In this document: positions 14,328 through 18,635 of the stretch, one piece after another
Position numbering within the stretch: position 1 is the first letter of the stretch
Layout: every line of letters begins with the position of its first letter
NCBI RefSeq assembly: GCF_003334255.1
Contig: NZ_QOWU01000025.1
DNA length: 64,000 bases
Strand: one strand, 5' to 3'
Origin: Escherichia coli
GTDB taxonomy: Bacteria > Pseudomonadota > Gammaproteobacteria > Enterobacterales > Enterobacteriaceae
Notes under the pieces: model-generated
What the model saw: the letters and a program-made list of their open reading frames with translations, nothing else
What the model was told of the DNA's origin: nothing
The model's database searches: none
Program-made: the position numbers and the translations under genes

Positions 14328-15689
14328 TTAGCGACCAGGGAAGCCTGGGGGCATCATACCCTTCATGCTTCTCATCATCTTCGCCATTCCGCCCTTCTTC
14401 ATTTTCTTCATCATGCGCTGCATGTCGTCGAACTGTTTCAGAAGACGGTTAACGTCCTGCACCTGCATACCGCAACCGGCAGCAATACGGCGTTTACGCG
14501 AACCTTTGATGATTTCTGGCTTAGCGCGCTCTTTCATCGTCATCGAGTTGATGATGGCTTCCATACGCACCAGCACTTTATCGTCCATCTGTGACTTGAC
14601 GTTATCCGGGATCTGCCCCATGCCCGGCAGCTTGCCCATCAGACTAGCCATGCCGCCCATATTTTTCATCTGGCGCAGCTGCTCAAGAAAGTCGTTGAGA
14701 TCGAAGCCGTCACCTTTTTTCAGCTTGCTGGCTAATTTCTCTGCCTGCGCGCGGTCAACTTTGCTTTCGATATCTTCGATCAGCGACAGTACGTCGCCCA
14801 TGCCGAGAATACGCGACGCGATGCGGTCCGGATGGAACGGCTCCAGCGCCTCAGTTTTCTCGCCAACACCGAGGAACTTGATCGGTTTGCCAGTGATGTG
14901 ACGAATAGAGAGCGCCGCACCGCCGCGGGCATCGCCGTCCACTTTGGTCAACACTACGCCGGTAAGCGGTAACGCTTCATTGAATGCTTTTGCCGTATTG
15001 GCCGCATCCTGACCGGTCATGGCGTCAACCACAAACAGGGTTTCAACCGGGTTAATCGACGCATGGACTTGTTTGATCTCGTCCATCATCGCTTCGTCAA
15101 CGTGCAGACGACCAGCGGTATCCACCAGCAGCACGTCGTAGAATTTCAGTTTGGCTTCTTTCAGCGCCGCGTTAACGATATCTACCGGCTTCTGACCAAC
15201 ATCAGAAGGGAAGAAATCAACGCCCACCTGCTCTGCCAGCGTCTCAAGCTGTTTGATTGCCGCCGGGCGATAAACGTCGGCAGAAACCACCAGCACTTTC
15301 TTCTTGTGCTTCTCGCGCAGGAACTTACCGAGTTTACCAACGCTGGTTGTTTTACCGGCACCTTGCAGGCCCGCCATCAGTACGACCGCAGGCGGTTGCG
15401 CAGCCAGGTTCAGGGTCTGGTTCTCTTCGCCCATCGCCGCAACCAGTTCGTTACGGACTATTTTGACGAACTCCTGCCCCGGCGTCAGGCTCTTATTAAC
15501 TTCATGACCAACCGCTTTCTCTTTTACGCGATTGATAAACTCACGCACTACCGGCAGAGCTACGTCCGCCTCCAGCAGCGCCATGCGCACTTCGCGCAGC
15601 GTATCTTTTACGTTGTCTTCAGTGAGGCGTCCACGGCCACTGATATTGCGCAGCGTGCGCGACAAACGATCGGTTAAATTATCAAACAT
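14328..15689 (-). CDS. ffh: Signal recognition particle protein Ffh (453 aa)
   Basis: ORF track protein MFDNLTDRLSRTLRNISGRGRLTEDNVKDTLREVRMALLEADVALPVV... with GTPase motifs and Met-rich M domain. Confidence 0.97.
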   Translation of the reverse strand: MFDNLTDRLSRTLRNISGRGRLTEDNVKDTLREVRMALLEADVALPVVREFINRVKEKAVGHEVNKSLTPGQEFVKIVRNELVAAMGEENQTLNLAAQPPAVVLMAGLQGAGKTTSVGKLGKFLREKHKKKVLVVSADVYRPAAIKQLETLAEQVGVDFFPSDVGQKPVDIVNAALKEAKLKFYDVLLVDTAGRLHVDEAMMDEIKQVHASINPVETLFVVDAMTGQDAANTAKAFNEALPLTGVVLTKVDGDARGGAALSIRHITGKPIKFLGVGEKTEALEPFHPDRIASRILGMGDVLSLIEDIESKVDRAQAEKLASKLKKGDGFDLNDFLEQLRQMKNMGGMASLMGKLPGMGQIPDNVKSQMDDKVLVRMEAIINSMTMKERAKPEIIKGSRKRRIAAGCGMQVQDVNRLLKQFDDMQRMMKKMKKGGMAKMMRSMKGMMPPGFPGR

Positions 15690-15855
15690 TGTCTCTCGCC
15701 TGGGGTGGAAACGGTTGGCCGCAATCGCGACACATCATCAGTATTTTGCCGCAGTATAACATGAAGGCGTCTTTGTTGTTATGCAACGGTTGGAGCAGCG
15801 TTCACCTGACGCTATACTGCTTCTCTTTCTTATTGCTCAAACTGTCGACATCACT

Positions 15856-16647
15856 ATGCCCGTTTTTGCTCTGCTCGCGCTTGTCGCCTACTCCGTCAGT
15901 CTTGCGCTGATTGTTCCCGGTCTGCTGCAAAAAAACGGCGGCTGGCGGCGCATGGCTATTATTTCTGCGGTCATTGCGCTGGTCTGCCACGCAATCGCTC
16001 TGGAAGCCCGCATCCTGCCCGACGGTGATAGCGGACAAAACCTCAGCCTGCTGAACGTTGGTTCATTGGTCAGTTTGATGATCTGTACGGTAATGACCAT
16101 TGTGGCTTCTCGCAATCGTGGCTGGCTGCTGCTACCCATTGTCTATGCCTTTGCGCTTATCAACCTGGCGCTGGCAACCTTCATGCCCAATGAATACATC
16201 ACCCATCTGGAAGCTACGCCTGGGATGCTGGTGCACATTGGCTTATCGCTCTTTTCCTATGCCACGCTAATTATCGCCGCCCTGTACGCGCTGCAACTGG
16301 CGTGGATTGATTACCAACTGAAGAACAAGAAGCTGGCGTTTAACCAGGAAATGCCGCCATTGATGAGTATCGAGCGTAAAATGTTCCACATCACGCAGAT
16401 TGGCGTGGTGCTGCTAACGCTCACGCTTTGCACTGGCCTGTTCTACATGCACAACTTATTTAGCATGGAAAATATCGACAAGGCTGTGCTCTCTATCGTG
16501 GCGTGGTTTGTCTATATTGTGCTGCTGTGGGGACATTATCATGAAGGATGGCGTGGACGCCGCGTCGTCTGGTTTAACGTTGCGGGCGCGGTAATTCTGA
16601 CACTGGCCTACTTCGGCAGCCGAATTGTCCAGCAGTTAATCAGCTAA
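15856..16647 (+). CDS. ypjD: Inner membrane protein YpjD (263 aa), cytochrome c assembly-like family
   Basis: ORF 15781..16647 trimmed by 25 codons to MPVFALLALVAYSVSLALIVPGLLQKNGGWRR...; multi-TM. Confidence 0.85.
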   Translation: MPVFALLALVAYSVSLALIVPGLLQKNGGWRRMAIISAVIALVCHAIALEARILPDGDSGQNLSLLNVGSLVSLMICTVMTIVASRNRGWLLLPIVYAFALINLALATFMPNEYITHLEATPGMLVHIGLSLFSYATLIIAALYALQLAWIDYQLKNKKLAFNQEMPPLMSIERKMFHITQIGVVLLTLTLCTGLFYMHNLFSMENIDKAVLSIVAWFVYIVLLWGHYHEGWRGRRVVWFNVAGAVILTLAYFGSRIVQQLIS

Positions 16648-16667
16648 ACCCAGAAAAGGAGTTTCCC

Positions 16668-17954
16668 CTGGAACACATTTCTACTACTACGTTGATCATT
16701 ATTCTGATCATCATGGTGGTCATTTCAGCCTATTTTTCCGGGTCCGAAACCGGAATGATGACCCTCAACCGCTATCGTCTGCGACATATGGCGAAACAGG
16801 GTAATCGCTCGGCCAAACGCGTCGAAAAATTGCTGCGTAAGCCAGACCGCCTGATAAGCCTGGTGTTAATCGGCAATAACCTGGTCAATATTCTTGCCTC
16901 CGCGCTCGGCACTATTGTTGGGATGCGTTTGTACGGCGATGCGGGCGTGGCAATTGCGACTGGTGTGCTGACTTTTGTCGTACTGGTATTTGCTGAGGTA
17001 TTGCCGAAAACCATTGCCGCGCTGTACCCGGAAAAAGTCGCTTATCCGAGTAGTTTTCTGCTGGCTCCGCTGCAAATTTTGATGATGCCGCTGGTCTGGT
17101 TGCTGAATGCTATCACCCGTATGCTGATGCGCATGATGGGTATCAAAACCGATATCGTGGTTAGCGGCTCTTTGAGCAAAGAAGAGTTGCGCACTATCGT
17201 GCACGAATCACGCTCACAAATTTCCCGTCGCAATCAGGATATGCTGCTGTCGGTGCTCGATCTGGAAAAAATGACCGTTGATGACATCATGGTGCCGCGC
17301 AGTGAAATTATCGGTATTGATATCAACGATGACTGGAAATCGATTCTGCGCCAACTCTCCCACTCACCTCACGGGCGCATCGTGCTCTACCGTGATTCGC
17401 TGGACGACGCCATCAGTATGCTGCGAGTACGTGAAGCCTGGCGGTTGATGTCGGAGAAAAAAGAGTTCACCAAAGAAACCATGCTGCGCGCCGCGGACGA
17501 GATCTATTTTGTGCCGGAAGGTACGCCGCTCAGCACGCAGTTGGTAAAGTTTCAGCGCAACAAAAAGAAAGTCGGCCTGGTCGTCAACGAGTATGGAGAC
17601 ATTCAGGGGCTGGTGACGGTTGAAGATATTCTGGAAGAGATTGTCGGCGATTTCACTACGTCGATGTCGCCAACACTTGCCGAAGAGGTCACGCCGCAAA
17701 ACGACGGTTCGGTGATTATCGATGGCACCGCCAACGTGCGGGAAATCAACAAAGCCTTTAACTGGCATCTACCGGAAGATGATGCCCGCACGGTTAATGG
17801 CGTCATTCTTGAGGCACTGGAAGAGATCCCTGTCGCAGGCACCCGCGTGCGTATTGGCGAGTACGATATCGATATTCTCGACGTACAGGACAATATGATT
17901 AAGCAGGTAAAAGTTTTTCCTGTGAAACCGCTGCGCGAGAGTGTGGCGGAGTAA
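16668..17954 (+). CDS. yfjD: CNNM/CorB-family inner membrane protein YfjD with CBS pair and CorC-HlyC domain
   Basis: ORF track gives 16692..17954 (TTG start, MIIILIIMVVISAYFSGSETG...); I extend 8 codons to 16668 because an AAAGGAG RBS sits 7 nt upstream there and I recall a 428-aa protein beginning MEHISTTT; that codon reads as CTG, so the start is uncertain. Confidence 0.8.
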   Translation: MEHISTTTLIIILIIMVVISAYFSGSETGMMTLNRYRLRHMAKQGNRSAKRVEKLLRKPDRLISLVLIGNNLVNILASALGTIVGMRLYGDAGVAIATGVLTFVVLVFAEVLPKTIAALYPEKVAYPSSFLLAPLQILMMPLVWLLNAITRMLMRMMGIKTDIVVSGSLSKEELRTIVHESRSQISRRNQDMLLSVLDLEKMTVDDIMVPRSEIIGIDINDDWKSILRQLSHSPHGRIVLYRDSLDDAISMLRVREAWRLMSEKKEFTKETMLRAADEIYFVPEGTPLSTQLVKFQRNKKKVGLVVNEYGDIQGLVTVEDILEEIVGDFTTSMSPTLAEEVTPQNDGSVIIDGTANVREINKAFNWHLPEDDARTVNGVILEALEEIPVAGTRVRIGEYDIDILDVQDNMIKQVKVFPVKPLRESVAE

Positions 17955-18008
17955 CGAAAACGGCCCGGCATTCGCATGCAGGGCCGTGAATTATTACGAA
18001 AGCAGAAA

Positions 18009-18635
<627 letters not shown>

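What the first reader, a model, noticed from the sequence alone, without database searches (positions are those of the whole stretch)
16650..16700. yfjD appears to initiate on a non-ATG codon
No ATG or GTG is in frame before the first transmembrane segment. The ORF finder starts at TTG (16692), which has no SD. A good AAAGGAG sits 7 nt upstream of an in-frame CTG at 16668, which would add MEHISTTT to the N-terminus and matches the 428-aa length I recall for this protein. A CTG start would be rare in E. coli and would imply weak, possibly regulated initiation.
Basis: partly seen in the sequence, partly recalled or inferred. Interest (0 to 1): 0.2.

Follow-up and report, generated by a model that had tools for sequence, protein, structure and literature searches.

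The report
Known CTG start codon of yfjD
The E. coli membrane-transporter gene yfjD (corB family) does begin translation at a rare CTG codon behind a strong ribosome-binding site, but this is already annotated and was confirmed by mutagenesis more than a decade ago, so the finding is correct and not new.

Summary
An in-frame CTG sits at 16668-16670, six bases after AAAGGAG (16655-16661). It adds MEHISTTT ahead of the TTG at 16692 and gives 428 aa. RefSeq starts yfjD at this CTG in K-12 (b4461) and in the other E. coli records I checked. [quoted passage not shown]

My comparative analysis supports this independently:
- The orthologous first codon is NTG in 79 of 79 Enterobacteriaceae species: CTG 36, TTG 30, GTG 13, ATG 0.
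- The Leu at codon 9 drifts through six synonymous codons.
- An in-frame stop usually lies 6-21 nt upstream of codon 1.
- 5425 of 5426 E. coli genomes carry the Shine-Dalgarno (SD)-CTG context. In 331 of them a 1-nt insertion in the spacer rules out coding upstream.

CTG species carry a stronger SD (AAGGAG) than TTG/GTG species (AAGGAA or AAGGAC), which looks like compensation. I found no conserved RNA structure or other sign of regulation. Seven of nine distant relatives also have called non-ATG starts, which hints that a weak start is old in this gene. Interest is low.

The parts
15856..16647 (+). ypjD coding sequence (cytochrome c assembly family inner-membrane protein), the upstream gene. 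Its TAA stop at 16645-16647 lies 20 nt before the yfjD start.
   Evidence: RefSeq coordinates carried over from L001 and L003. A ypjD-like ORF ends 12-30 nt before the yfjD start in 73 of 79 species.
16655..16661 (+). Shine-Dalgarno sequence AAAGGAG serving the CTG start.
   Evidence: Sequence. Duplex with the 16S 3' end is -8.2 kcal/mol. An AAGGA core is present at the same distance in nearly all of the 79 species.
16662..16667 (+). 6-nt spacer TTTCCC between the SD and the start codon. It is 7 nt (TTTCCCC) in 331 E. coli genomes of the O157:H7 type.
   Evidence: Tolerance of a 1-nt indel shows this stretch is not translated in the yfjD frame.
16668..16670 (+). CTG initiation codon of yfjD, decoded as fMet.
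   Evidence: RefSeq CDS start. Published mutagenesis statement. The orthologous codon is NTG in 79 of 79 species. It is CTG in at least 5425 of 5426 E. coli genomes.
16668..17954 (+). yfjD coding sequence including the stop: a 428-aa inner-membrane protein of the CNNM / HlyC-CorC family (CorB-like).
   Evidence: RefSeq annotation. NCBIfam NF008604 equivalog scores 866.7 bits, covering residues 1-427 of a 428-position profile. Pfam CNNM 11-184, CBS 278-326, CorC_HlyC 344-418.
16692..16694 (+). TTG at codon 9 (Leu). This is the formerly annotated start and the ORF-finder start, but not the real one.
   Evidence: No SD (+2.8 kcal/mol). It is TTG in only 7 of 79 species and otherwise CTG, CTC, CTT, CTA or TTA. 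Mutating it had no effect on expression according to EcoGene 3.0.
16713..16715 (+). ATG at codon 16 (invariant Met inside transmembrane segment 1). Gene callers that do not allow CTG choose it as the start.
   Evidence: ATG in 79 of 79 species. No SD. It lies inside the Pfam CNNM domain, which begins at residue 11. Truncated MVVISAYF... predictions of 397-433 aa occur in non-NCBI sources.

Best explanation
yfjD (b4461) encodes a CNNM/CorB-type inner-membrane transporter and is translated from the CUG codon at 16668. The 30S subunit is positioned by the strong SD AAAGGAG 6 nt upstream. Initiator fMet-tRNA reads CUG with a mismatch at the first codon position, the same position that is tolerated in GUG and UUG starts, so the protein begins fMet-Glu-His-Ile-Ser-Thr-Thr-Thr. 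The gene sits 20 nt behind ypjD, very probably in one operon. Ribosomes finishing ypjD may therefore add to initiation by re-starting locally. Because CUG is an intrinsically poor start codon, output per mRNA is expected to be low, and the strong SD offsets part of that. What is shown: the sequence anatomy, the annotation, the published mutagenesis statement and the evolutionary signature of a start codon. What is inferred: the low rate, any contribution from coupling to ypjD, and SD compensation.
For: Annotation: the K-12 CDS at 2748774..2750060 and the PGAP CDSs in other strains all start at this CTG.

Comparative evidence:
- Codon 1 is CTG 36, TTG 30, GTG 13 in 79 species. Positions 2 and 3 are invariant and only start-competent NTG codons occur. 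The Leu codons at positions 9 and 13 use 5-6 synonymous forms.
- Codons 2-8 (EHISTTT) are conserved as protein with synonymous drift.
- An in-frame stop lies 6-21 nt upstream in most species, with no canonical start in between.
- 72 of 79 species have no ATG, GTG or TTG at codon 9. Downstream of codon 1 the only in-frame start codon shared by all species is Met16, inside TM1.

Within E. coli: 5094 genomes have the exact SD-spacer-CTG context. A further 331 have it with one extra C in the spacer. None has ATG, TTG or GTG in that context.

SD strength: -8.2 kcal/mol before the CTG and none before the other candidate starts.

Family profile: the NCBIfam equivalog is 428 positions long and aligns from residue 1.
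Against: The published experimental confirmation is one sentence citing unpublished results. I found no ribosome-profiling or N-terminal peptide evidence for this gene. The supplements of the tetracycline-profiling paper and of a ribosome-signature paper do not mention yfjD. An E. coli N-terminomics study reports only ATG, GTG and TTG among its 688 confirmed database starts. Reporter work puts CUG at about 1% of AUG, so a minor additional initiation at Met16 cannot be excluded from sequence alone. Six species have 104-159 nt between ypjD and yfjD and still use CTG, so coupling to ypjD cannot be essential.
Confidence: 0.93

Rival explanations
1. Translation starts at the TTG at 16692 (the old annotation and the ORF-finder call), giving a 420-aa protein. 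The CTG and its SD are coincidental.
For: TTG is a canonical bacterial start and is the first ATG/GTG/TTG in the open frame. The Pfam CNNM domain starts at residue 11, so a start at codon 9 would not truncate it.
Against: There is no SD upstream (+2.8 kcal/mol). Codon 9 is TTG in only 7 of 79 species and is a non-start Leu codon in the others. Mutating it had no effect on expression. Codons 2-8 are conserved as protein sequence.
Confidence: 0.02
2. Translation starts mainly, or in addition, at the invariant ATG at 16713 (Met16), giving the 413-aa protein that many gene callers predict.
For: ATG is present at codon 16 in 79 of 79 species. AUG is about 100-fold better than CUG as a start codon in reporters. 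Non-NCBI gene callers predict MVVISAYF... products.
Against: There is no SD. The codon lies inside the first hydrophobic segment and inside the CNNM domain, which begins at residue 11, so the product would lose part of TM1. The Met is conserved as a residue of that segment. The upstream 15 codons are conserved as protein. The truncated predictions come from non-NCBI sources and are probably artefacts of gene callers that do not allow CTG starts (from general knowledge).
Confidence: 0.04
3. Initiation at the CUG depends largely on translational coupling. Ribosomes terminating at the ypjD stop 20 nt upstream re-initiate at the CUG, so yfjD output follows ypjD translation rather than independent 30S recruitment. 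This is a variant of the main explanation, not an alternative start site.
For: The ypjD stop lies 12-30 nt (mode 18) before the start in 73 of 79 species. The ffh/ypjD/yfjD order is kept in relatives of only 42-50% identity. No promoter-like site was found on the + strand between ypjD and yfjD.
Against: Six species have 104-159 nt inserts between the two genes and keep AAGGAG plus CTG. A strong SD argues for direct 30S binding. Nothing here tests dependence on ypjD translation.
Confidence: 0.3
4. The CUG start is a regulatory device. Because initiation factor IF3 discriminates against non-canonical starts, yfjD output would rise when IF3 is limiting or when initiation fidelity is relaxed, as with the AUU start of infC.
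For: This rests only on analogy. IF3 contributes to accurate start-codon selection, and IF3 discrimination against non-canonical starts is established for infC (from my own knowledge of the field). ATG is never seen in the 79 Enterobacteriaceae species, and 7 of 9 distant relatives have called non-ATG starts, which is compatible with selection for a weak start.
Against: There is no conserved RNA structure around the start. TTG and GTG, which are not strongly discriminated, replace CTG freely in other genera, so a specific need for a non-canonical codon is unlikely. There are no expression data.
Confidence: 0.1

Closest known systems
hda of E. coli (the first chromosomal E. coli gene shown to start at CTG)
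   Same: A chromosomal E. coli K-12 gene whose annotated start had to be moved to a CTG. EcoGene 3.0 names hda as the first and yfjD as the second confirmed case.
   Different: It is a different protein (a regulator of DnaA, against a membrane transporter). For hda the evidence is a dedicated publication cited by EcoGene. For yfjD it is a sentence citing unpublished fusion data.
infC and pcnB of E. coli (AUU starts)
   Same: Non-canonical, poorly used start codons in otherwise ordinary SD-led genes, giving low expression (from my own knowledge of the field).
   Different: The mismatch is at the third codon position rather than the first. For infC the codon is the basis of demonstrated IF3 autoregulation. 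No regulation is shown for yfjD, and its orthologues swap CTG freely with TTG and GTG.
General trend of start-codon weakening compensated by a stronger Shine-Dalgarno (Belinky, Rogozin and Koonin 2017, PMC5622118)
   Same: Across 79 species, CTG goes with AAGGAG (32 of 36, mean -8.1 kcal/mol), while TTG and GTG go with weaker AAGGAA, AAGGAC or AAGGAT (42 of 43, means -5.9 and -6.1). This is the direction that paper reports for sub-optimal starts.
   Different: That study dealt with AUG, GUG and UUG. Here the weakest member is CUG. My association rests on only about 8 inferred changes per trait on a gene tree, so it is suggestive and not a formal test.
CNNM / CorB / CorC Mg2+ transporter family (for example Salmonella CorB and the archaeal CNNM with a solved structure)
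   Same: Same domain architecture of CNNM (DUF21) transmembrane domain, CBS pair and CorC_HlyC domain. yfjD is listed beside Salmonella CorB in a CNNM family tree.
   Different: This concerns the protein and not the finding. The transport function of E. coli YfjD itself was not examined here.

Membership tests
Bacterial genes initiating at CUG (hda-type non-canonical start) | An in-frame CUG preceded by a Shine-Dalgarno sequence at functional spacing (about 5-9 nt) | tested here: met
   AAAGGAG at 16655-16661, a 6-nt spacer, CTG at 16668. Duplex energy is -8.2 kcal/mol.
Bacterial genes initiating at CUG (hda-type non-canonical start) | No canonical start codon available upstream in frame, and downstream candidates implausible | tested here: met
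   There is no ATG, GTG or TTG between the in-frame stop at 16575 and 16692. TTG 16692 and ATG 16713 lack an SD.
Bacterial genes initiating at CUG (hda-type non-canonical start) | Orthologues carry a start-competent codon at the same position, and the residues after it are conserved as protein | tested here: met
   NTG in 79 of 79 species (CTG 36, TTG 30, GTG 13). Codons 2-8 are conserved with synonymous drift.
Bacterial genes initiating at CUG (hda-type non-canonical start) | Sequence upstream of the CUG is not under coding constraint in that frame | tested here: met
   A 1-nt insertion in the spacer occurs in 331 E. coli genomes and a 9-nt duplication in one strain. In-frame stops lie 6-21 nt upstream in most species.
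Bacterial genes initiating at CUG (hda-type non-canonical start) | Mutating the CUG abolishes expression, and mutating the alternative start does not | not testable with these tools
   EcoGene 3.0 reports this as done, citing unpublished data of Dague and Rudd. I could not reproduce it here.
Bacterial genes initiating at CUG (hda-type non-canonical start) | Direct mapping of the initiating ribosome or of the N-terminal peptide | tested here: inconclusive
   yfjD is absent from the supplements of two start-site mapping papers. The E. coli N-terminomics set contains no CTG-initiated database start. I saw no positive or negative data.
IF3-controlled non-canonical starts (infC type) | Expression responds to IF3 level or to infC fidelity mutants because of the start codon | not testable with these tools
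   No data found. The free exchange of CTG with TTG and GTG among genera argues that a strictly non-canonical codon is not required.
Translationally coupled gene pair (termination-reinitiation) | Stop of the upstream gene within a few tens of nucleotides of the downstream start | tested here: met
   20 nt in the window, and 12-30 nt in 73 of 79 species.
Translationally coupled gene pair (termination-reinitiation) | Downstream translation depends on translation of the upstream gene | not testable with these tools
   This needs reporter experiments. Six species with 104-159 nt gaps that keep CTG argue against strict dependence.
CNNM / HlyC-CorC transporter family (YfjD/CorB equivalog) | CNNM transmembrane domain plus CBS pair plus CorC_HlyC domain, with a score above the curated equivalog cut-off | tested here: met
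   NF008604 scores 866.7 bits against a cut-off of 475, covering residues 1-427 of 428. Pfam PF01595, PF00571 and PF03471 are all found.

The most novel reading that the evidence does not exclude
The weak, non-AUG start of yfjD/corB may be an old, selected property of the ypjD-yfjD gene pair rather than an E. coli oddity. ATG never occurs in 79 Enterobacteriaceae species, and the called start is TTG or GTG in 7 of 9 relatives of only 42-50% identity. SD strength appears tuned to hold output at a low set point. Going further, a start codon that is sensitive to initiation fidelity on a CNNM-type Mg2+ transporter could tie its synthesis to IF3 activity or cytosolic Mg2+, both of which affect start-codon stringency. 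None of this was tested here.
Probability: 0.1. Interest if true: 0.5.

Novelty: already known. Interest (0 to 1): 0.15.

Why it matters
The finding itself has little importance. The CTG start of yfjD is in the reference annotation and was reported as experimentally confirmed in 2013.

The case still has practical value in three ways.
- Gene callers that forbid CTG truncate this protein at Met16 in metagenome and assembly collections.
- A published MazF 'regulon' table appears to measure its cleavage distance from the superseded TTG start.
- The gene gives a clean natural series of CTG, TTG and GTG at one orthologous start with co-varying SD strength. That series could be used to calibrate how far an SD offsets a poor start codon.

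Tried and rejected
- I looked for direct initiation-site data on yfjD. The supplements of the tetracycline-profiling paper and of a ribosome-signature paper hold no entry for yfjD or b4461. The main texts of the retapamulin preprint, a Salmonella riboproteogenomics paper and the TRAINSPOTTER N-terminomics paper do not mention it.
- I looked for a regulatory RNA structure around the start. The single-sequence fold is not better than shuffles (z = -1.05). The consensus fold of 29 species has essentially zero energy and no pairs near the SD or start. A small hairpin, GUUUC-CCCU-GGAAC, appears in the E. coli minimum-energy fold but not in the centroid, and it is not supported across species. I rejected it.
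- I looked for an internal promoter for yfjD inside ypjD. The consensus scan finds none on the + strand. That scan is weak evidence.
- The search for homologous proteins returned only Enterobacteriaceae among its best 120 hits, so it did not widen the taxonomic range. I used the 50%-identity representatives plus contig look-ups instead.
- I considered ATT at 16677 as a start. It is 15 nt from the SD, and nothing singles it out as a start (the codon varies among ATC, ATT and ATA across species), so I rejected it.
- One broad literature search returned nothing useful.

Full report
**What is in the window.** Positions 14328-18602 hold ffh (-), ypjD (+), yfjD (+) and grpE (-) of Escherichia coli. 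A 1-kb query around the finding matches all 5426 complete E. coli genomes, and the start region is identical to K-12 MG1655.

**Checking the observation.** The sequence statements are all correct.
- CTG is at 16668-16670, in frame with the TTG at 16692. The seven codons between them read GAA CAC ATT TCT ACT ACT ACG.
- The extension is (M)EHISTTT and the product is 428 aa instead of 420.
- AAAGGAG is at 16655-16661 and is separated from the CTG by the 6-nt spacer TTTCCC.
- The frame is open back to a TAA at 16575, with no ATG, GTG or TTG before 16692.
- The first in-frame ATG (16713) and GTG (16716) are codons 16 and 17, inside the first hydrophobic segment.
- Predicted pairing with the 16S rRNA 3' end is -8.2 kcal/mol upstream of the CTG. 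It is +2.8 upstream of the TTG and +0.6 upstream of the ATG.
- Only 7 of the 1420 CTG triplets on the + strand of the window have an SD this strong.

**It is already annotated and published.** RefSeq starts the yfjD CDS exactly at this CTG. This holds for K-12 (b4461, 2748774..2750060, 1287 nt) and for the PGAP-annotated strains I examined, including the most divergent ones. The NCBIfam equivalog for this protein, NF008604, is 428 positions long and aligns from residue 1.

EcoGene 3.0 (PMC3531124) has a section headed 'CTG start codon verification'. [quoted passage not shown] The source is unpublished results of Dague and Rudd.

**Independent comparative evidence across species.** I fetched the orthologous locus from 79 Enterobacteriaceae species and tabulated the codons.
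- Codon 1 is CTG in 36 species, TTG in 30 and GTG in 13. It is never ATG and never a non-start Leu codon such as CTC, CTT, CTA or TTA.
- The ordinary Leu at codon 9 (the E. coli TTG) is CTG 50, CTC 11, TTG 7, CTA 6, CTT 4 and TTA 1. Leu13 behaves the same way.
- A position that admits only C, T or G followed by an invariant TG is the signature of an initiation codon.
- Codons 2-8 are conserved as Glu-His-Ile-Ser-Thr-Thr-Thr with synonymous drift, so they are translated.
- In most species an in-frame stop lies 6-21 nt upstream of codon 1, with no canonical start in between.
- In 72 of 79 species codon 9 is not ATG, GTG or TTG. Downstream of codon 1, the only in-frame start codon shared by all species is the invariant Met16, inside TM1 and inside the Pfam CNNM domain, which begins at residue 11.

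**Evidence within E. coli.**
- 5094 genomes carry the exact 30-nt SD-spacer-CTG context.
- Queries with ATG, TTG or GTG in place of CTG find nothing.
- 331 further genomes, of the O157:H7 type, carry the same context with one extra C in the spacer. That makes 5425 of 5426.
- The 1-nt indel immediately before the CTG, and a 9-nt duplication of the ypjD stop region in one strain, show that nothing upstream is read in the yfjD frame.

**Mechanism.** The best-supported picture is ordinary SD-directed initiation in which fMet-tRNA reads CUG with a first-position mismatch. Reporter measurements put CUG at 1-2% of AUG. A 2024 structural paper quotes 0.86%, against 58% for GUG and 30% for UUG, and notes that CUG makes up 0.024% of bacterial start codons. 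Output per mRNA is therefore expected to be low. This is inferred, not measured here.

Two features may raise it. The first is the SD. CTG species carry AAGGAG in 32 of 36 cases (mean -8.1 kcal/mol). TTG and GTG species carry AAGGAA, AAGGAC or AAGGAT in 42 of 43 cases (means -5.9 and -6.1). This is the direction of compensation described in general by Belinky et al. 2017. On a gene tree each trait changes only about 8 times, so the association is suggestive and not proven.

The second is position. The ypjD stop lies 20 nt upstream in E. coli and 12-30 nt upstream in 73 of 79 species, so terminating ribosomes could re-initiate. Six species have 104-159 nt inserts there and still use AAGGAG plus CTG, so coupling cannot be obligatory.

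**Is it regulated?** I found nothing to support this. The region does not fold better than shuffled sequence (z = -1.05). A 29-species consensus fold has no pairs around the SD or start. The free exchange of CTG with the much stronger TTG and GTG among genera argues against a specific requirement for a non-canonical, IF3-sensitive codon.

**Wider distribution.** I looked up nine representatives of only 42-50% identity from metagenomes, most with the same ffh/ypjD/yfjD order. Their called starts are TTG in five, GTG in two and ATG in two. In L086 the arrangement TAAGGAA, 6 nt, TTG GAT AAC ATT ACC ACC matches the enterobacterial one closely. In L089 a TTG 27 nt downstream of the called start resembles the E. 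coli N-terminus better than the called start does. With ATG at about 82% of annotated starts in well-annotated bacterial genomes, this hints that a non-AUG start is old in this gene pair. The sample is small, its taxonomy is unknown, and the starts are gene-caller predictions.

**Verdict.** The comparative pattern adds modest detail and no new kind of biology.

Noticed in passing
window 16673-16677: The MazF-regulon paper (PMC5001579, Table 1) lists yfjD with a cleaved ACA 17 nt from the start. The only ACA sites nearby are at 16673 and 16675. The one at 16675 is exactly 17 nt before the old TTG start at 16692 and lies inside the real coding sequence (codons 3-4). That entry seems to rest on the superseded start, so the site is not in a 5' UTR.
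   Followed up: partly
window 16662-16667; L084 (O157:H7 FRIK2069): 331 of 5426 E. coli genomes, including O157:H7 strains, carry one extra C in the SD-to-CTG spacer (7 nt instead of 6). This natural spacing variant might slightly change initiation efficiency.
   Followed up: partly
L002 1846-1863 (strain ChlosBP-23-1); window 16645-16653: There is a 9-nt tandem duplication, TAACCCCAG, of the ypjD stop region. It lengthens the ypjD-yfjD gap from 20 to 29 nt in one divergent E. coli strain.
   Followed up: no
L009, L019, L024, L025, L026, L036 (about 100-160 nt upstream of position 1501): Citrobacter amalonaticus S646, Raoultella species, Enterobacter sp. 10-1 and Intestinirhabdus alba have 104-159 nt inserted between the ypjD stop and the yfjD start. 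All keep AAGGAG plus CTG. I did not examine what the inserts are (REP-like elements, for example).
   Followed up: no
P0121, P0123, P0135 and several hits: Gene callers outside NCBI truncate this protein at Met16 (MVVISAYF..., with predicted products of 397-433 aa). The representative of the E. coli cluster in the 50%-identity library is such a 411-aa truncation. One 640-aa prediction (P0002) also begins MVVISAYF and I did not explain it.
   Followed up: partly
window 15781-15858: The ORF list gives ypjD as 288 aa from the ATG at 15781, while RefSeq annotates 263 aa from the ATG at 15856. I did not examine which start is used.
   Followed up: no
L086-L095: The divergent ffh / ypjD / yfjD arrangement is kept in relatives with only 42-50% protein identity, and 7 of 9 have called TTG or GTG starts. 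In L089 a TTG 27 nt downstream of the called start fits the conserved N-terminus (LETISTE...) better than the called start, which overlaps the upstream gene.
   Followed up: partly
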